Of a DNA stretch of 64,000 nt, positions 35,782 through 44,166 are shown piece after piece. Made by a program: the position numbers and the translations under genes. Position 1 is the first letter of the stretch, and each line of letters begins with the position of its first letter. The notes beneath the pieces are model-generated. The model was not told the origin of the DNA and made no database searches. It worked only from the letters and a program-made list of their open reading frames with translations. The DNA is taken from NCBI RefSeq assembly GCF_054482525.1, contig NZ_CM137006.1, one strand, 5' to 3'.

Positions 35782-36054
35782 ATGTCTCATACCATCCGTG
35801 ATAAACAGAAACTGAAAGCGCGTGCCAGTAAGATTCAGGGCCAGGTCGTGGCGCTCAAGAAAATGCTCGACGAGCCGCACGAATGCGCTGCAGTTTTACA
35901 ACAGATTGCTGCTATCCGTGGCGCGGTAAACGGTCTGATGCGGGAAGTGATTAAAGGTCATCTGACGGAACACATCGTTCACCAGGGGGATGAGCTAAAA
36001 CGTGAAGAAGATCTGGATGTCGTTCTGAAGGTGCTGGATTCTTATATCAAATAA
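35782..36054 (+). CDS. rcnR: Ni/Co-responsive repressor (CsoR/RcnR family)
   Basis: 90 aa, [35 protein letters not shown]... Confidence 0.85.
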
Positions 36055-36142
36055 TTTATTAACGCTATTGTAAAACTGCCGTTTTTCCTCGTTTACAACG
36101 GGTGCGCTGGACATTACCATCCTCCTCTGCGATTTATCATCG

Positions 36143-36224
36143 CAACCAAACGACTCGGGGTGCCCTTCTGCGTGAAGGCTGAGAAATACCCGTATCACCT
36201 GATCTGGATAATGCCAGCGTAGGG
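36143..36224. repeat. attL-like 82-bp direct repeat: duplicated 5' part of the thiM TPP-riboswitch aptamer
   Basis: Identical to 44033..44114. It lies between rcnR and an integrase gene. Confidence 0.85.
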
Positions 36225-36307
36225 GGCCAAAATAGTCTTGAAAATTATGTGGTTGTATCTCTTTTTGACCATAAATCATGCTGTTAAGGTACAAAAAGGG
36301 GTCGTTT

Positions 36308-37615
36308 ATGAGGTCAAGAACTCTCCCATACACATTTCAGCGAAACGGTAATTACTATCTACAAATCCGGCTTTCGGATGGTCGGATATACAAAAAATCA
36401 CTTTTTACTGACAGTTATCGCGAAGCATCGGCGTTGATGATTGGCCTTACTCCGCACATTCCTTTCGTTAAATCACTCGCTACTCCGTTGCCGCAATTTA
36501 ATAAGTTTGTTTCAAACTTGATCGCTTCGTCACGTAACGTAATGATTCCGTTGCCACTCCCTCAGCAATTGAACAATATTTCTAAAGAAGTTTTGCAGCT
36601 TCAACCACCAGCCAAACCGGAAAAGGTACTAACACTTGCTGATGCGTGGGCTATGTACAAGGAGGAAAGAGGTCGAAATTGGACAAAATCGATCTCAATA
36701 GCAAATGAGCGTTATATGGAGGTATTGCTTGTTGTCTTGGGAAAAGAAACAGACGTAACGGCAATCACCAAACAAGATATTAAGCGAGTAATGGAAACTG
36801 TCGAAAACTTACCAAAGCGTGTAGTGCAACCGTATAGGTCAATGACTATTCAGCAACTAATCGAATGTGATGATGTGCTGCCAGAGGATTTAGTTGGTGC
36901 TGAGGCTGTACATAAGCACCTTAAAATCTACAAATCGTTATTCAAAACATTTCTGACTGAAAACAAAGATATTCTATCTAAGTCTCCGACTGATGGAATA
37001 GTAGCGGCACCATCCAAAGCTAGGTTTGGTGCATACAGTGCAGCAGAAATGAAAAAATTTGTAGGATGGGCACTAAAGCAGCCTGATGGATGGCAGAAGT
37101 GGATCACTTTGTTGTTGGCGTACACAGGAGCCAGAAGAGGTGAGATTGCTAAACTGGAGAAGTCGCAGATCAAATTTGATGAAGATAGCCAGCGGCACTA
37201 TCTTCTGATCGCGGAAAGAAGGCTGGGTAAAACTGAGAATGCTACAAGACAGGTAGTGATTCATCCCAAACTGATTGAGTGGGGGTTTCTGGATTTTGTT
37301 AACCGCCAATGGAAAGAGAAAATCTTTTCGGAAGTCTCAGGTCGAAATATGTCAAAGATAGGTAAAGTTCTTTCAGATGTTCGTGATCAGCTTGATATTC
37401 CTTATCTTGATGATTATGGGCAGCGGCGCTTGGTGCATAGTTTCCGGCATACTATGATTTCTACTTGTTTAGCTGGTTGGGTGAGTAATTTGGCGCATCT
37501 GCAACAGGTGGTAGGTCATGAAAAGAGTGGAGTAGGGATTACCCAGCGTTATCTGCACACATTCCCACTTTCCACCGTTTGTTATGTGATCGATGGTCTT
37601 TGTTGGGAGACTTAG
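36308..37615 (+). CDS. tyrosine-type site-specific integrase
   Basis: 435 aa from MRSRTL, using the start downstream of RBS aaaagggg; the alternative start is at 36278. The C-terminal catalytic region has R...HSFRHT...Y (VHSFRHTMIS, ITQRYLH) and sits next to an att repeat. Confidence 0.8.
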   Translation: MRSRTLPYTFQRNGNYYLQIRLSDGRIYKKSLFTDSYREASALMIGLTPHIPFVKSLATPLPQFNKFVSNLIASSRNVMIPLPLPQQLNNISKEVLQLQPPAKPEKVLTLADAWAMYKEERGRNWTKSISIANERYMEVLLVVLGKETDVTAITKQDIKRVMETVENLPKRVVQPYRSMTIQQLIECDDVLPEDLVGAEAVHKHLKIYKSLFKTFLTENKDILSKSPTDGIVAAPSKARFGAYSAAEMKKFVGWALKQPDGWQKWITLLLAYTGARRGEIAKLEKSQIKFDEDSQRHYLLIAERRLGKTENATRQVVIHPKLIEWGFLDFVNRQWKEKIFSEVSGRNMSKIGKVLSDVRDQLDIPYLDDYGQRRLVHSFRHTMISTCLAGWVSNLAHLQQVVGHEKSGVGITQRYLHTFPLSTVCYVIDGLCWET

Positions 37616-37743
37616 TTATTCGTGTATCCTTCTTAGTGTATAACCAGCTAATAATTTGTAGATTTTTATTGTCTGAGATCAAAAATTTTCACAACTAATT
37701 TACAATAATAACTTAAGATGAATTTAGGCTTAGTGAGTCTTCT

Positions 37744-38469
37744 ATGGTTAAAAATTTAGGCAAAAAATACAAGTATGGCGATCAACCGATAAGAGCTATT
37801 ACCATACAGATAATTGCTAATCAGTTTGGTGGGGCTGCAACGGCTAAGCAGGTAGATGATTATCTTAGAAAGCTATTTCCATCTTATAAAGATAATACTT
37901 GGCTCAATTTAATTGCTAATACAGTTAATTGTAAGCGGAGCTACTGGAGTTTCAACAAAACTGCCCGACGAACTGATGATGTAACTCATCGGCATCATAA
38001 GTATGACCGATTGTTCAAGCGTGGAAATATTTTTGAAATCTATCAACCATCTGTGCACGGTATTTGGGAATTATACCAGGATTTAGAAGGGATGTGGCGT
38101 TATCGTCAAGTAAAATCGGTTTTCGAAGAAGCTGTTGAGACGGCTGCAAAATTATCTTCAGTGGAACGAAAGCAAATTTTAGCGACAGAAAGTAAAATCC
38201 CGGAACTAATCGAAGTAACAACACGAGTTTATAAACGAAGCCCATATGTAGTTGCTGAAGTTCTTTTGAGAGCAAATGGAAAATGTCAATATTGTAAGCG
38301 AGATGCTCCTTTTCTAAAGGAAGATGGTACTCCATTTCTAGAAGTTCATCATATTGAGTGGCTTTCAAAGGGGGGGGAGGACTCTGTGGAAAATGCTATT
38401 GCATTATGTCCTAATTGCCATAGACAAGCCCATTATGGCGATCTGACATTACTACCTGTTAATAAATAG
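37744..38469 (+). CDS. McrA-like HNH endonuclease (putative type IV modification-dependent restriction enzyme)
   Basis: The C-terminal motif CQYCKRDAPFLKEDGTPFLEVHHIEWLSKGGEDSVENAIALCPNCHRQAHYGD is a close pattern match to the McrA HNH region. The N-terminal roughly 150 aa are unrelated to any family I recognise. Confidence 0.55.
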   Translation: MVKNLGKKYKYGDQPIRAITIQIIANQFGGAATAKQVDDYLRKLFPSYKDNTWLNLIANTVNCKRSYWSFNKTARRTDDVTHRHHKYDRLFKRGNIFEIYQPSVHGIWELYQDLEGMWRYRQVKSVFEEAVETAAKLSSVERKQILATESKIPELIEVTTRVYKRSPYVVAEVLLRANGKCQYCKRDAPFLKEDGTPFLEVHHIEWLSKGGEDSVENAIALCPNCHRQAHYGDLTLLPVNK

Positions 38470-38546
38470 GCTTGATGAAAGTTCTATTTCTATATTTTTC
38501 AATATACAAATTTCCCCAAAAACGGCGTGAATATCACGCCGATCAA

Positions 38547-38894
38547 TCATACTTCAGAACACATACTCAATGTGTAAACAGCCATCTCCCCATCGGGATT
38601 AGAAGGGCGTAATACAAATATCGGTATACTGCCATTGTCAATGTATGTGGCTGCAACCCCTCCGTCAGGTGTAGCATACATCTTTGCGATGCTTTTTTGA
38701 CCTACAAAATCAAGTCTCCAAGTTTTACCGCCAAGATTTATGGTCATTTTTTTATCTTGTATATCAAAAGTTGAATCTACAGAAACTTTCTGACTTCCCG
38801 AGTCAATATGACCTTCCTGTATTGCTTTACAGGAAAAGGTTGTGGCGTGGCCCATCACTGGAATTAACAAAGCGGCAAATACTAGTTTTTTCAT
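38547..38894 (-). CDS. small secreted protein (signal peptide MKKLVFAALLIPVMGHA)
   Basis: 115 aa from MKKL. RBS aagggagacaa. Convergent with the HNH gene. Confidence 0.5.
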   Translation of the reverse strand: MKKLVFAALLIPVMGHATTFSCKAIQEGHIDSGSQKVSVDSTFDIQDKKMTINLGGKTWRLDFVGQKSIAKMYATPDGGVAATYIDNGSIPIFVLRPSNPDGEMAVYTLSMCSEV

Positions 38895-39004
38895 TTGTCT
38901 CCCTTGGTGTGTCAAATGGATGGTGATGCTAATAATACATGATTGATTCAAAATGTCACGATTAGTGCGTGGTTAATTGGTGCGTCAAATTGCATCTTTG
39001 TGCC

Positions 39005-39469
39005 ATGCGAAAGAATCTGAGATACCTTTTTGGACAACGAGTAAAAGAGTTCCGTATAGCTATTGGCTTAAGCCAAGAGGCCTTTGCAGATCGGTGTGGT
39101 TTTGCACGTAGTTATATGAGTCGAATTGAGCGTGGTTGCTCTAATGCATCTCTTGATGCAATTGAGGTTCTGGCTGACGCTTTGCGTATTGAGCCTTGGC
39201 AGTTACTGGCTTCTGATTCAAGGAAACCTGATGATCAGGAGGTACTTGTTCCTTATGCTGCAGATGGGTCGTGTTTTCATCCAGGATTGGCAAGTACTCG
39301 CGATGGTTCGTTTAGAGTAGGGGAAAAATCAGCCCAGAAACGTTTCAGTTCGTTCAATGAAGCTCTCGAATACCTTCGTGGAATGGAAACCGCGAAGTGG
39401 CGTAGGCCTAATGCTAGTGGTAATTGGGGAATTGTATCTGCGGTTAAATGGGATCGACTGAATCAATAA
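39005..39469 (+). CDS. XRE-family HTH transcriptional regulator with a C-terminal extension
   Basis: HTH reads LRYLFGQRVKEFRIAIGLSQEAFADRCGFARSYMSRIERG. 154 aa. Confidence 0.65.
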   Translation: MRKNLRYLFGQRVKEFRIAIGLSQEAFADRCGFARSYMSRIERGCSNASLDAIEVLADALRIEPWQLLASDSRKPDDQEVLVPYAADGSCFHPGLASTRDGSFRVGEKSAQKRFSSFNEALEYLRGMETAKWRRPNASGNWGIVSAVKWDRLNQ

Positions 39470-39635
39470 GATATCAGTAATTTTCGGGCCACTCCACAAG
39501 GCAATAAGTGGCTTAGTGGTGATTATCGAAGGGGAATACAAGCGAGCACCTAGGCACCATTGCAAGAACCGCTCAACGCTGAGATCAGCAAGCCCCGATT
39601 TTTGCCGACCGTCCCTGTCAAATATCAAGGAGGCA

Positions 39636-40187
39636 TTACGCCACCTGCTCTTTCTTGATACGTTGCACCGTCTGCGTGCTGACACTGAAATCTTTTGCTA
39701 CGCTCCGAATTGAGCCACCATTCGCGAGAGCGGCAGCAATTCCCGCTCGATCAATTGCTTTTCCATTACCACGTTTTGCTATACGTCCAGCGGCCTTGGC
39801 TGCGGCGATCCCTTCACGTTGACGCTCAAGCATCATTTCACGTTCCATTTGTGCCACTGCTGCAAGAACTGTGAGCATCATATTCCCTGCGGGAGAGTTC
39901 TTTCCTGTCTTAAAGTCTTCTTTATGGAAATGCACAGACACGCCGCGCTTTGTTAATTGCTCTACAGTTGCCAGAAGGTCGGCTGTATTACGACAAAGGC
40001 GATCAATACTATGGACGTGTAACACGTCACCCTCCCGCACATAGTTCATCATTGCCTCAAACTGTGGGCGCTGAGTGTTCTTGCCTGACGCTTTATCTTC
40101 AAAGACTTTATCAAGAGTTACTCCTGCTAATTGACGGTCTGTGTTTTGTTGCACAGTCGATACCCTAATGTATCCAATATTAGCCAT
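39636..40187 (-). CDS. small serine recombinase (resolvase/invertase family)
   Basis: N-terminal catalytic motif IGYIRVSTVQQNTDRQ with the active-site Ser. The C-terminal HTH reads SIRSVAKDFSVSTQTVQRI. 183 aa. Confidence 0.8.
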   Translation of the reverse strand: MANIGYIRVSTVQQNTDRQLAGVTLDKVFEDKASGKNTQRPQFEAMMNYVREGDVLHVHSIDRLCRNTADLLATVEQLTKRGVSVHFHKEDFKTGKNSPAGNMMLTVLAAVAQMEREMMLERQREGIAAAKAAGRIAKRGNGKAIDRAGIAAALANGGSIRSVAKDFSVSTQTVQRIKKEQVA

Positions 40188-40219
40188 CTTCTTTTTTCTT
40201 CTGTATTGATTTGTGTGTA

Positions 40220-40325
40220 GTGATTATTGAACGTGTTGATTAGGTGTGTAAAGTACTTTTTTCACTACGAAATTCGAAGTTTTTTAGTGTGGTGATTTAG
40301 CCTGCCTTATCACTACACTTCTTGC
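40220..40325. promoter_or_regulatory. candidate res/recombination site: clustered inverted copies of GTGTAGTGAT(T/A)A just upstream of the serine recombinase gene
   Basis: Motifs found at about 40226 (gtgtagtgatta), 40262 (tcactacg, inverted), 40283 (agtgtggtgatt) and 40309 (atcactacac, inverted). The arrangement resembles multi-subsite res sites. Confidence 0.3.
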
Positions 40326-40571
40326 ATGAGAATCATGTAGTTACATTTTGGTAAAATTAGCAAGCTATTAAATTGTGTGTTTATTTTGAAAAAATAATTT
40401 TTGTTGCATTAAAGAAAACTTGTTCGACAAATAATAGGTTGATTTTTGATCAATAATTTCTGATAGTGCTCTGTAAGCCGCATTACACAAGGCGCAGCGA
40501 AAGTGATGTAAAAGTGAAGAAAGCTAACATTGCACTTTTAAACTACTTTTCATTGAATTTTTTAGTATGGA

Positions 40572-40644
40572 ATTACACAGGAATAAGTTAGGGATATTCT
40601 ATGATTTACACAGGGAATATAGGGGGATTATGGTATTACACAGA
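40572..40644. repeat. three spaced (a/t)ttacacag motifs, 33 and 31 bp apart, upstream of the iterons
   Basis: attacacagg at 40572, tttacacagg at 40605 and attacacaga at 40636. Possible protein-binding array (DnaA- or IHF-like sites or Rep auxiliary sites). Confidence 0.35.
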
Positions 40645-40673
40645 GTGAGTGCTATGTGATGATTGGTAGTAAC

Positions 40674-40783
40674 GGTAGGTCACTGTGAACTAGGGGGGTA
40701 GGTCACTGTGAACTAGGGGGGTAGGTCACTGTGAGCTAGGGGGTAGGTCACTGTGAACTAGGGGGTAGGTCACTGTGAACTAC
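40674..40783. repeat. five tandem 22/23-bp iterons (TAGGTCACTGTGAACTAGGGGG), putative replication origin
   Basis: Copies start at 40676, 40699, 40722, 40744 and 40766. They are directly followed by an AT-rich tract of about 90 bp (40784..40870) made of ataataagactat-type repeats, a candidate DNA-unwinding element. There are no spacers, so this is not CRISPR. Confidence 0.85.
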
Positions 40784-41884
40784 AATAAGACTATAATAAG
40801 ACTATTAATAAAACTATATTAGATTATTAATTAGATCATAATAATAATATTCTTTATATCTATATATATATGATCTTTTGCCTTCCGGCGTTAGCTTCAC
40901 TCTCTGGCAAGCAGCCTTACTCCGCTACCTTTCGGGCTACGTTGGCTGGCCCGTTCCGCTCACACCGAAAGCAAAGCGTTACTTTCTTCGTGTAACTTCG
41001 TTGGCGGTAACGCCCACGAAGGAATACTATTGCGCTGTGCGCAGTAAGAGTAATCACCTAACCAATCATCTGATTGCTTACGTGTTAACTCTCTCTAACT
41101 CTTAATTACCCTCCTACATTTAATAACTCTCGTTATTCTCTGTAGTTGTGTAATTACTCGAAGAGAGAGCGGCTAAAGCTCAATTACACTCTGCTTTCCT
41201 CGTGTAATTTCACTAAGCCTCAATACAATTTCACTTCCTACATTCTGTAGTCGTGTAATTGTTTTCGGTGGAAAAGCCAGAGGCGACACCGAAAGAGAAT
41301 TCTGATCTTATTAATCTTATCTATCTTAGTTATCTTACTTACTTTATCTACTTTATTATTAATAATAGCTTTATAAGCTCTCTGTGTAGCTCTCTGACGC
41401 AAGAAACAGAGTTCAGGAAGGGAATCACCTTAGAAAAGTGTTCTTTGCGTCATAATGTGTTTTATGAAGGATTCAGAGGTGTTTCATAACAGAGATGTAT
41501 AGAGGATACTTTAGGTAATTAAAAATAAGGGGTCTAAATGCTTCTCTAACAGCATTAAGCAGGGTAGAGAATGGAAACCGCTTTGCCTACATATATAAAC
41601 TCACTACAGGGCTTTACAGAGCGTTTTATAAAGTGACTCTCTGTTTTATATCTACCATCACCTTTTCATATACCTAACAAATACAAAATAAGCCCCTTAA
41701 ATAAGCCTCTGGCGAGCTAAACAGCCATTACATAAGAGAATGTATTGCTTTTATCAAAACCTCGTTAGAACGCGTTTTAGAGCGTTTTAGCGGATAATGA
41801 AGAATAGCACTACACAGGAGAGCACGAATTGCTAAGAAAAAATGTAACTACATGAAAAAGATCAGATTTTTTGTGAAAAGGTAT

Positions 41885-41913
41885 TGACAAACGTCTCTTT
41901 CTGTGCAATAATA
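41885..41913 (+). promoter_or_regulatory. sigma70-like promoter (TTGACA-17-AATAAT) for the small-gene operon
   Basis: Consensus -35, 17-bp spacer and an A/T-rich -10, located about 125 bp upstream of the first ORF. Confidence 0.4.
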
Positions 41914-42038
41914 GGTATTAGAGGGACAGGAATAGATTCTTATCCTCTAAATAATTAAACCAATGCACCGCACTTTGAAGCCCAAGGCTTGTAAGGTGTG
42001 TTTTTTCTTTTAACCAAATAGAATAAGGAGGCTAATTA

Positions 42039-42468: not shown

Positions 42469-43158
42469 ATGATTAATCAACTAACTTTTACAAAACACTA
42501 TGACACGTTTGATAATGTATCAAAGATTTATTCTGATAAATTCCCTCAAGGAAAAGATTTAGATCTATTACATATTGTGCTTTATTTTCGATTCCTTAGT
42601 TATCAGGAAAACAACCTTAATTGTTATGAAAGTCACGAAACATTAGCTAAGATTTTTAAGTCTTCAGCGTCAACAATTAAACGTAAGATAAACGATCTTA
42701 AAGAGATGGGATTATTAGAAACATCCCCACATCCTGATCCGTATATTTCATCTTTGATTTACAATGCTCTCCCTCTCACAGATGCACATATTACTCCCCC
42801 AGGAGAATCATCACTCTCTGATCTTTCTGAGGCAGAAGAAGCACAGGAACAACCTAAAGGCCATAAACAGCCTTCTTTTGATGTTCTTGATGATTGGGAT
42901 ACGCCTTTACCCTGGGAGACGGAAGAAACACCTGTTTCATCAAGTGAAAAAGTAGCTAATGATAATGAGGAGGATGTGTTAGAGAATTTTGCCTCTCTTA
43001 TCATCCAGGAGAAACACACAAGAACAGGAGGAGCATCATTTATTGAGTTTGCAAATTCACTAGCTTGTAGATACGGGCTAAAACGACCAAATGGTATTGA
43101 GGCATATTTTTCTAAGAATTACCCAAATATATACGATGACTTTGATATTCCATTTTAA
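42469..43158 (+). CDS. 229-aa winged-helix protein with an acidic disordered C-terminal half, candidate replication initiator
   Basis: HTH-like segment HETLAKIFKSSASTIKRKINDLKEMGLLE. Strong RBS taaggag. It is encoded downstream of the iteron array. No recognised family without a search. Confidence 0.4.
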   Translation: MINQLTFTKHYDTFDNVSKIYSDKFPQGKDLDLLHIVLYFRFLSYQENNLNCYESHETLAKIFKSSASTIKRKINDLKEMGLLETSPHPDPYISSLIYNALPLTDAHITPPGESSLSDLSEAEEAQEQPKGHKQPSFDVLDDWDTPLPWETEETPVSSSEKVANDNEEDVLENFASLIIQEKHTRTGGASFIEFANSLACRYGLKRPNGIEAYFSKNYPNIYDDFDIPF

Positions 43159-44032: not shown

Positions 44033-44114
44033 CAACCAAACGACTCGGGGTGCCCTTCTGCGTGAAGGCTGAGAAATACCCGTATCACCTGATCTGGATA
44101 ATGCCAGCGTAGGG
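44033..44114. repeat. attR-like 82-bp direct repeat (5' part of the native thiM riboswitch)
   Basis: Identical to 36143..36224. It is contiguous with the remainder of the thiM leader. Confidence 0.85.
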
Positions 44115-44166
44115 AAGTCACGGACCACCAGGTCATTGCTTCTTCACGTTATGGCAGGAGCAAACT
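44033..44166 (+). ncRNA. TPP (thi-box) riboswitch in the thiM 5' leader
   Basis: The sequence ...ACGACTCGGGGTGCCCTTCTGCGTGAAGGCTGAGAAATACCCGTATCACCTGATCTGGATAATGCCAGCGTAGGGAAGTCACGGACCACCAGGTCATTGCTTCTTCACGTTATGGCAGGAGCAAACTATG matches the well-studied E. coli thiM riboswitch, both aptamer and expression platform. Confidence 0.9.

What the first reader, a model, noticed from the sequence alone, without database searches (positions are those of the whole stretch)
37744..38469. Island cargo: McrA-like HNH nuclease with a novel N-terminal domain (candidate modification-dependent restriction / anti-phage gene)
The C-terminal 55 aa (CQYCKRDAPFLKEDGTPFLEVHHIEWLSKGGEDSVENAIALCPNCHRQAHYGD) reproduce, almost position for position, the HNH nuclease motif of E. 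coli McrA (CxxC...LEVHH...LSxGGxD...N..ALCPNCH..HY). The N-terminal roughly 170 aa have no resemblance to the McrA N-domain that I can recognise. In type IV enzymes the N-domain is what reads the DNA modification, so this could be a restriction enzyme with a different modification specificity. It is carried as the first cargo gene after int, the position defence hitch-hikers typically occupy. A small signal-peptide protein is encoded convergently just downstream.
Basis: partly seen in the sequence, partly recalled or inferred. Interest (0 to 1): 0.7.

Follow-up and report, generated by a model that had tools for sequence, protein, structure and literature searches.

The report
McrA-type nuclease with winged-helix reader
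This E. coli island gene joins the DNA-cutting domain of the restriction enzyme McrA to an uncharacterised winged-helix DNA-binding domain, so it is most likely a stand-alone enzyme that cuts foreign DNA carrying a chemical mark that has not yet been identified.

Summary
Window 37744..38469 (+) encodes a 241-aa protein. Residues 141-232 align to EcoKMcrA 166-258 (E = 5.5e-23, 46% identity), and every catalytic and zinc-binding residue is conserved. The N-terminal part is not McrA's NEco domain.

It is not without relatives, though. A confident AlphaFold model shows a winged-helix (wH) core with a beta-rich extension (aa ~8-125). Profile comparison places it as a divergent relative of Pfam DUF7669 (hhalign 98.4%, E = 1e-14).

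Elsewhere this domain is fused to HNH, HNH_2 and NucS-like nucleases and a resolvase. It also forms the N-terminus of two McrB GTPases, each followed by McrC. That pattern fits a DNA target-reading module.

Full-length homologues (60-100% identity) occur across Enterobacterales, always as a solo gene and never beside a methyltransferase. They sit in islands, plasmids, a prophage moron and core-genome sites.

Best reading: a stand-alone type IV-like restriction nuclease. Its target cannot be Dam or Dcm methylation, because its hosts carry those marks. The wH-HNH architecture is published, but with a DpnI-type wH that reads 6mA. This wH belongs to a different, untested family.

Verdict: new variant of a known kind, moderate interest (0.5). 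No function has been shown.

The parts
37744..38469 (+). Complete gene: 241-aa wH(DUF7669-like)-HNH protein (stop codon 38467-38469)
   Evidence: ORF; RefSeq CDS WP_000240373.1 'HNH endonuclease'; 583 homologues, with a full-length family at 60-100% identity across Enterobacterales; dN/dS 0.086 against the 76%-identical sister allele.
37765..38118 (+). N-terminal domain, aa ~8-125: winged-helix core (H16-27, strand 31-33, H34-44, H52-58) plus a conserved beta-rich extension (strands 90-93, 96-99, 107-112, 118-123). Family motifs: VN..R, (P)RRTD, YD.LF, Y.P..HG.WE
38119..38238 (+). Linker helices, aa ~126-165 (H126-136, H139-148). From aa ~141 they are homologous to the McrA segment before the HNH core, which includes McrA's 'crossover' dimerisation region 179-191
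   Evidence: phmmer alignment query 141-232 = McrA 166-258; AF2 secondary structure; McrA dimer description in PMC6182155.
38239..38439 (+). McrA-type HNH (beta-beta-alpha-metal) nuclease core, aa ~166-232, with 2 x CxxC zinc site and H202/H203/N217/H226/H230
36278..37615 (+). Context: tyrosine integrase of the island (RefSeq start 36308)
   Evidence: Pfam Phage_integrase E = 8e-7; PHROG integrase E = 7e-27; annotation.
36143..36224 (+). Context: attL, an 82-bp perfect direct repeat lying within a TPP riboswitch copy (36146-36241)
   Evidence: Longest common substring; alignment; Rfam RF00059, 61.3 bits.
44033..44114 (+). Context: attR, the second copy of the 82-bp repeat, within the thiM TPP riboswitch (44036-44132)

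Best explanation
The gene encodes a stand-alone, NTP-independent, type IV-like (modification-dependent) restriction endonuclease carried as accessory cargo of a small integrative element.

Proposed mechanism:
1. The C-terminal half (aa ~141-232) is a McrA-type HNH module with an intact metal site. Like EcoKMcrA, it probably dimerises through the helices that precede the HNH core and cuts or nicks both strands, probably preferring Mn2+.
2. The N-terminal extended winged-helix domain (aa ~8-125, DUF7669-like) is the targeting module. It binds double-stranded DNA that carries a mark absent from the host chromosome and positions the HNH dimer to cut nearby.
3. All hosts are Dam+ Enterobacterales, and E. 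coli is usually also Dcm+. The mark therefore cannot be G6mATC or C5mCWGG. Candidates are foreign methylation patterns or phage hypermodified bases.

Shown here: the domain architecture, an intact active site, purifying selection on both domains, solo and mobile occurrence without a methyltransferase, and reuse of the N-domain in McrBC systems and other nuclease fusions.

Inferred: DNA binding by the N-domain, dependence on modification, dimerisation, metal preference and anti-phage or anti-plasmid function.
For: 1. The HNH module is McrA-type with all catalytic and zinc residues conserved and invariant (roles from PMC6182155).
2. The N-domain is a confident winged-helix fold.
3. It is homologous to DUF7669. 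The same domain is fused to HNH_2 (24 proteins), HNH (8), NucS_C PD-(D/E)XK (3) and a serine recombinase in place of its DNA-binding domain. It also forms the N-terminus of two McrB-like GTPases, each followed by McrC. That is the position where McrB carries its DNA-reading domain.
4. No methyltransferase or other conserved partner lies beside the gene in any context: two E. coli island types, Klebsiella, Serratia, Citrobacter, an IncX5 plasmid, a 4.7-kb plasmid and a prophage. An unregulated nuclease with a DNA-binding domain and no protecting methylase is tolerable only if its target is absent from host DNA. The same argument is made for solitary wH fusions in PMC11037411.
5. Neighbours are often defence-type genes: AIPR Abi in the sister island, RT and AAA_15/21 ATPase in Klebsiella, a STAND NTPase in the prophage.
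6. Patchy distribution (99/5426 E. coli genomes, two alleles about 76% identical) with strong purifying selection (dN/dS 0.11 for the N-domain, 0.008 for HNH).
Against: - No experiment exists on this protein or on any DUF7669 protein that I could find: zero papers for DUF7669, PF24706 or WP_000240373.
- The resolvase fusion shows only that DUF7669 is a DNA-binding module. It says nothing about reading modifications.
- The window protein does not reach the Pfam DUF7669 model, with no hit even at E <= 10. The link is by profile only.
- No PADLOC defence model covers the N-domain.
- EcoKMcrA itself is only weakly methyl-dependent in vitro (PMC6182155), so the nuclease module alone does not guarantee specificity.
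- Dimerisation and DNA contacts were not modelled.
Confidence: 0.6

Rival explanations
1. It is a 6mA-dependent wH-HNH enzyme of the DpnI/HhiV4I type described by Helbrecht et al. 2024, in which the winged helix reads fully methylated ApT, typically G6mATC.
For: Same overall architecture and size: published wH-HNH enzymes are 224-283 aa and this one is 241 aa, with an N-terminal wH and C-terminal HNH (PMC11037411; fold). Relatives also exist with a PUA-like domain, the N-domain and HNH_2 (P0133), which resembles the PUA-wH-HNH layout.
Against: - Hosts are Enterobacterales, which carry Dam (established knowledge), so G6mATC specificity would be self-destructive. The published enzymes were toxic in Dam+ E. 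coli.
- A profile of the N-domain family finds no DpnI or any other PDB chain at E <= 10.
- tblastn of P0133 and of the window protein against phage records returned no haloarchaeal virus, though I did not confirm that HHPV4 is in that collection.
- Only about 10% of published wH fusions carry the DpnI 6mA/GATC motif.
- 6mA in a non-Dam context is not excluded. It falls under the best explanation.
Confidence: 0.07
2. It is an element-serving nuclease rather than a defence gene. It could be a homing-type or site-specific HNH that promotes spread or maintenance of the island or plasmid, or a phage or satellite packaging HNH that partners a terminase.
For: In both E. coli island types the gene sits immediately after int, and int and HNH have diverged to a similar degree (about 82% and 76% nucleotide identity). 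The island has its own iteron replicon and a serine recombinase. HNH proteins are common in phage packaging modules.
Against: - The gene also occurs alone between core genes in Serratia, with IS elements in Citrobacter, and on unrelated plasmids, with no integrase.
- The island backbone is in 743 E. coli genomes but the gene in only 99.
- No terminase or cos context was seen. In the prophage it lies among nin and replication genes as a moron.
- There is no full-length homologue in 50,697 phage genomes and only 5 among 2.9 million viral contigs.
- It is not inserted in a gene, intron or intein.
- The HNH subtype is the McrA restriction type.
Confidence: 0.1
3. It is a modification-independent effector: a nuclease toxin kept silent by regulation or by an unlinked inhibitor and released on infection (abortive infection or toxin-like), or one that recognises a DNA structure or sequence typical of invaders rather than a chemical mark.
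For: DUF7669 also replaces the sequence-reading domain of a resolvase and occurs in tandem arrays and with a kinase, so it may be a plain DNA-binding module. Neighbours include an Abi gene and a STAND NTPase. An XRE-type regulator that resembles R-M controller proteins lies two genes downstream in this island.
Against: No conserved neighbour could serve as antitoxin or regulator across contexts. The XRE gene is absent from the sister island. Both domains are under strong purifying selection as one unit. Use of the domain as the McrB N-terminus points to target reading in a restriction system.
Confidence: 0.2

Closest known systems
EcoKMcrA (E. coli e14 prophage; PDB 6ghc; type IV restriction enzyme for Y5mCGR / 5hmC)
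   Different: The N-terminal reader is unrelated to NEco. There is no sequence match before aa 141, and the fold is winged-helix rather than the NEco fold. Specificity is therefore expected to differ. The protein is shorter (241 versus 277 aa).
[quoted passage not shown] 2024 PMC11037411; Lu et al. 2023 PMC10101028)
   Same: Architecture: a winged-helix sensor N-terminal to an HNH nuclease, 224-283 aa for wH-HNH. These are solitary genes, rarely next to methylases. Their HNH domains prefer Mn2+/Co2+, as McrA does.
   Different: Their wH is DpnI-like and reads 6mA, mostly in GATC. They live in Dam-negative hosts (haloarchaea and a few bacteria) and are toxic in Dam+ E. coli. Here the wH belongs to the DUF7669 lineage with a conserved beta extension, shows no detectable similarity to DpnI, and lives in Dam+ Enterobacterales.
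Pfam DUF7669 (PF24706), an uncharacterised domain
   Same: The enterobacterial family profile aligns to bona fide DUF7669 proteins over query aa 22-126 (hhalign 98.35%, E = 1.1e-14). They share the motifs LGG.AT, VN..SR, PR(R), YD.LF and ELYDP..HG.WE.
   Different: The window protein does not score against the Pfam model itself. The Pfam model (75 positions) covers only the wH part, whereas the conserved unit is about 115 aa. I found no function, structure or paper for the family.
McrBC systems with alternative N-terminal reader domains
   Same: Two McrB-like GTPases (P0145, P0178) carry the same N-domain at their N-terminus and are followed by McrC. This implies the domain plays the target-reading role there.
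   Different: The window protein has no GTPase or McrC partner.

Membership tests
EcoKMcrA family (NEco + HNH) | McrA-type HNH core: two CxxC zinc ligand pairs plus H228/H229/N243/H252/H256 | tested here: met
EcoKMcrA family (NEco + HNH) | NEco N-terminal 5mC/5hmC-reading domain | tested here: not met
EcoKMcrA family (NEco + HNH) | Dimerisation through the HNH domain and crossover helices | tested here: inconclusive
   The segment homologous to McrA 166-191 is present, but no multimer model or experiment was possible.
Type IV (modification-dependent) restriction enzymes | Separate DNA-reading domain fused to a nuclease domain | tested here: met
   wH domain plus HNH. The same N-domain is combined with four nuclease or motor types.
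Type IV (modification-dependent) restriction enzymes | No cognate protective methyltransferase | tested here: met
   No methyltransferase is adjacent in the window island, the sister island, Klebsiella, Serratia, Citrobacter, two plasmids or a prophage.
Type IV (modification-dependent) restriction enzymes | Cleavage requires modified DNA | not testable with these tools
   Needs phage and plasmid challenge and in vitro cleavage assays.
DpnI/HhiV4I-type wH fusion 6mA-dependent endonucleases (PMC11037411) | wH domain N-terminal to HNH, about 224-283 aa | tested here: met
   241 aa, wH at aa 16-100, HNH at 166-232. Size range.
DpnI/HhiV4I-type wH fusion 6mA-dependent endonucleases (PMC11037411) | wH homologous to the DpnI wH with the 6mA/GATC pocket motif | tested here: not met
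DpnI/HhiV4I-type wH fusion 6mA-dependent endonucleases (PMC11037411) | Host lacks Dam methylation, avoiding genome conflict | tested here: not met
   The gene is carried intact in 97-99 complete E. coli genomes and many other Enterobacterales. That these hosts have Dam is established knowledge and was not tested here.
Pfam DUF7669 (PF24706) | Scores above the Pfam gathering threshold | tested here: not met
   No DUF7669 hit for aa 1-150 even at E <= 10.
Pfam DUF7669 (PF24706) | Homology by profile-profile comparison and shared motifs | tested here: met
   hhalign 98.35%, E = 1.1e-14. 29/51 phmmer relatives carry DUF7669. Motifs.
Phage packaging HNH / homing endonuclease | Located next to a terminase or cos site, or inside an intron, intein or target gene | tested here: not met
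   Contexts. No full-length homologue in phage genomes.

The most novel reading that the evidence does not exclude
The DUF7669-like extended winged helix is a previously unrecognised class of DNA-modification reader, on a par with SRA/PUA, NEco, SBD and the DpnI-type wH. Evolution has plugged it into HNH, HNH_2, PD-(D/E)XK and McrBC effectors. The enterobacterial version would read a mark other than Dam or Dcm methylation, for example a phage hypermodified base or a foreign methylation pattern. That would give E. coli and KPC plasmids a type IV specificity that current defence catalogues miss.
Probability: 0.3. Interest if true: 0.75.

Novelty: new variant of a known kind. Interest (0 to 1): 0.5.

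Why it matters
- Type IV enzymes are defined by their reader domains, and few reader folds are known. If this one is confirmed, DUF7669 would gain a function, a reader family would be added, and about 600 'HNH endonuclease' annotations in Enterobacterales would be explained, including copies on carbapenemase plasmids.
- A small single-chain enzyme with a new modification specificity could also serve as a reagent for mapping that mark.
- It is directly testable: one 726-bp gene, a natural E. coli host and standard phage and plasmid panels.
- If it proves to read ordinary 5mC or 5hmC in some sequence context, it is simply another McrA-like enzyme of modest interest.

Tried and rejected
1. Foldseek of the N-domain against the PDB gave nothing significant (best E = 0.35). 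The afdb50 library was unavailable, so no AlphaFold DB neighbours were obtained.
2. Profile search of the N-domain family against PDB sequences gave one chance hit at E = 1.4.
3. The search for related loci with the N-domain alignment failed because no stretch was conserved enough.
4. I looked for this protein or for Enterobacterales in the supplements of PMC11037411. The only hits were mass-spectrometry contaminants.
5. I tried to anchor the PUA-like-[N-domain]-HNH_2 relatives to the characterised enzymes HhiV4I and ScoA3V. tblastn against phages found no haloarchaeal virus. Cluster look-up returned unnamed metagenomic proteins. The ScoA3V sequence could not be fetched. The link remains untested.
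6. PADLOC 'PDC-S02/S36' candidate-defence hits among relatives fall on other domains, not on the N-domain, so I do not use them as support.
8. The downstream signal-peptide ORF and the XRE regulator are not conserved next to homologues and were rejected as partners.
9. I checked whether the 17-nt inverted repeats next to the invertase-like gene mark an invertible segment. No opposite-orientation copies were evident in E. coli genomes. I did not pursue this.

Full report
**1. Observation**

Window 37744..38469 (+) is a 241-aa ORF with an ATG start. The window is E. coli chromosome. Positions 36000-40400 are 100% identical to strain SCU-102, where the ORF is annotated only as 'HNH endonuclease', WP_000240373.1.

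The C-terminal similarity to McrA is real and strong:
- Pfam HNH, E = 1.2e-12.
- PADLOC type IV model PDLC03656, aa 149-232, E = 1.3e-23.
- phmmer to PDB 6ghc (EcoKMcrA), E = 5.5e-23 over query 141-232.
- 46% identity over 92 residues and 56% from the first CxxC onward.

After allowing for the 10-residue tag in 6ghc, query C181/C184/H202/H203/N217/C222/C225/H226/H230 correspond exactly to McrA C207/C210/H228/H229/N243/C248/C251/H252/H256. These include the metal ligands and the general base defined experimentally in PMC6182155. All are invariant in 41 non-redundant homologues.

Nothing N-terminal to aa 141 matches McrA, Pfam, NCBIfam, PADLOC, PHROGs or any PDB sequence. McrA homology begins at aa ~141, in the helices that form McrA's dimer crossover. 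The distinct N-domain is therefore aa ~8-125, not 1-170.

**2. What the N-domain is**

AlphaFold2 with a 41-sequence alignment gives a confident model, with mean pLDDT 90 for the full length and 89 for aa 1-150 alone. The N-domain has a helix-strand-helix-helix core (H16-27, strand 31-33, H34-44, H52-58). A long conserved loop follows, then two beta hairpins (90-99 and 107-123).

An exhaustive phmmer search of aa 1-150 against 1.84 billion representative proteins found 60 relatives. In them the domain sits at different positions in proteins of 115-790 aa. A local HMM delimits a coherent unit of about 115 aa with the motifs LGG.AT / VN..SR / PRRTD / YD.LF / YELYDP..HGVWE.

Of 51 relatives scanned, 29 carry Pfam PF24706, DUF7669. 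That model's 75 positions cover only the wH part. The window protein does not reach the model. However, the enterobacterial family profile aligns to bona fide DUF7669 proteins at 98.35% probability, E = 1.1e-14, over query aa 22-126. The 'novel' N-domain is therefore a divergent member of an existing but uncharacterised domain family. I found no paper on it.

**3. What the domain's partners say**

Partner domains in relatives are:
- HNH_2 (24 proteins), HNH (8) and NucS_C PD-(D/E)XK (3).
- A serine recombinase catalytic domain, with the N-domain in place of the usual C-terminal DNA-binding HTH.
- A weak PUA/DUF3427-like N-terminal domain ahead of it in some HNH_2 fusions.
- AAA_5 with an McrB lid.

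Both McrB-like proteins (P0145, P0178) carry the domain at the extreme N-terminus and are immediately followed by an McrC gene. That is the slot where McrB proteins carry their DNA target-reading domain (established knowledge of McrBC).

The domain also occurs alone, in tandem, and once with a kinase. This combinatorial pattern is what is seen for reader modules of type IV systems. Strictly, though, it proves only a DNA-targeting role.

**4. Genomic context**

The gene lies in a ~7.9-kb low-GC island (33-45% GC against about 52-55% in the flanks). The island is bounded by 82-bp perfect direct repeats at 36143-36224 and 44033-44114. Its gene order is int, this gene, a signal-peptide ORF, an XRE regulator, a serine recombinase, an iteron array, a Rep-like gene and an HTH_73 gene.

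A sister allele (76% identical) sits directly after a related integrase in a sister island. That island uses the same rcnR|thiM site or other sites and carries an AIPR abortive-infection gene instead of the signal-peptide and XRE genes.

Other homologues are solo genes:
- In a Klebsiella variable region with SRAP, UmuDC, a reverse transcriptase and an AAA_15/21 ATPase.
- Between core genes in Serratia rubidaea.
- Next to IS elements in Citrobacter.
- On an IncX5 KPC-2 plasmid and on a 4.7-kb Pectobacterium plasmid with only Rep, Fic and two hypothetical genes.
- As a moron beside a STAND NTPase between the nin/RusA and replication genes of a lambdoid prophage.

No methyltransferase and no conserved partner appears anywhere.

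In complete E. coli genomes the gene is present in 99 of 5,426 (68 at 99% identity or more, 31 at 76-80%). The island's replicon backbone is present in 743, so the gene is accessory cargo. dN/dS against the sister allele is 0.11 for the N-domain and 0.008 for the HNH core. Both domains are functional and constrained.

**5. Mechanism proposed**

The protein most likely acts like other NTP-independent type IV enzymes. The wH/DUF7669-like domain binds a DNA mark. The McrA-type HNH module, probably dimeric and Mn2+-preferring as in EcoKMcrA (PMC6182155), cuts nearby.

The strongest argument for modification dependence is indirect. A solitary, mobile, constitutively encoded nuclease with a DNA-binding domain and no protective methylase can persist only if its target is absent from host DNA. 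The same reasoning is used for solitary wH fusions in PMC11037411.

The hosts are Dam+ Enterobacterales, and E. coli is usually also Dcm+. G6mATC and C5mCWGG are therefore excluded as targets (established knowledge). The actual mark cannot be deduced from the sequence.

**6. Comparison with known systems**

- It works like EcoKMcrA in its nuclease half, but it fails the family's defining NEco domain.
- It shares the published 'wH-HNH' architecture (PMC11037411). Those wH domains are DpnI-like 6mA/GATC sensors from Dam-negative hosts and are toxic in Dam+ E. coli.
- Here the wH shows no detectable relation to DpnI, and the hosts are Dam+.
- It is not a homing or packaging HNH.

I therefore classify it as a new variant of a known kind: a type IV-like HNH enzyme with a different, uncharacterised reader lineage.

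**7. Rivals and confidence**

| Reading | Confidence |
|---|---|
| Type IV-like restriction enzyme | 0.6 |
| Modification-independent effector or toxin, or structure- or sequence-directed nuclease | 0.2 |
| Element-serving or homing nuclease | 0.1 |
| DpnI-type Dam-6mA reader | 0.07 |

The most novel reading not excluded is that DUF7669 is a new class of modification reader with a specificity not covered by known readers. I put that at probability 0.3.

**8. Limits**

No function was tested. The AlphaFold DB fold library was unavailable. Links to the characterised enzymes ScoA3V and HhiV4I could not be checked for lack of their sequences. Dimerisation and DNA contacts were not modelled.

Noticed in passing
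window 36143-36241 and 44033-44132: The ~7.9-kb island is integrated inside the thiMD TPP riboswitch. The 82-bp perfect att repeats are the 5' part of the aptamer, and Rfam scores both copies above the gathering threshold (61.3 and 71.2 bits). The right copy still precedes thiM (44167). The left copy now lies about 40-65 nt upstream of the integrase start, so int may have come under thiamine-pyrophosphate control.
   Followed up: partly
window 40671-40787 (within the ORF-poor stretch 40200-42030) and 42469-43158: Five tandem 22-23-bp iterons (GGGGGTAGGTCACTGTGAACTA) lie in a 1.8-kb region without ORFs, followed by a Rep-like protein (HTH_36; PHROG replication initiation E = 2e-9). The island appears to carry its own iteron-type replicon. 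Similar backbone DNA (80-95% identity) is present in 743 of 5,426 complete E. coli genomes.
   Followed up: partly
window 40333-40349 and 41839-41855, next to 39636-40187 (-): A 17-nt perfect inverted repeat flanks about 1.5 kb that contains the iterons. It lies right beside a serine recombinase that matches DNA invertases (PHROG 125, E = 2e-61), so this may be an invertible segment. A quick look at E. coli genomes showed no opposite-orientation copies.
   Followed up: partly
window 38969-39469 (+): A 166-aa XRE-type HTH protein whose N-terminal half resembles restriction-modification controller (C) proteins (PADLOC Control_protein, E = 7e-17). Its C-terminal ~85 aa match nothing. It is absent from the sister island, so it is probably not a partner of the nuclease.
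   Followed up: no
L002-L007 (sister island, e.g. L002 6180-13151): Other E. coli strains carry, at the same rcnR|thiM site, a related island: int, an 86-aa ORF, a 76%-identical HNH allele, several small ORFs, a 575-aa AIPR (abortive infection) protein and a resolvase. The middle of this island family behaves as a variable cargo slot.
   Followed up: partly
L025-L099 (IMG/VR loci): More than 250 viral or proviral contigs encode proteins that share only the McrA-like cassette (query aa ~120-232: linker helices plus HNH) joined to other, unexamined N-terminal regions. The McrA nuclease module seems to be a widely reused cassette with many alternative N-domains.
   Followed up: no
L100 4576-7869 and L008: One of the two McrBC operons whose McrB begins with the DUF7669-like domain (L100) is followed by an HTH gene and a large SNF2-family helicase gene. 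This may be a composite defence locus.
   Followed up: no
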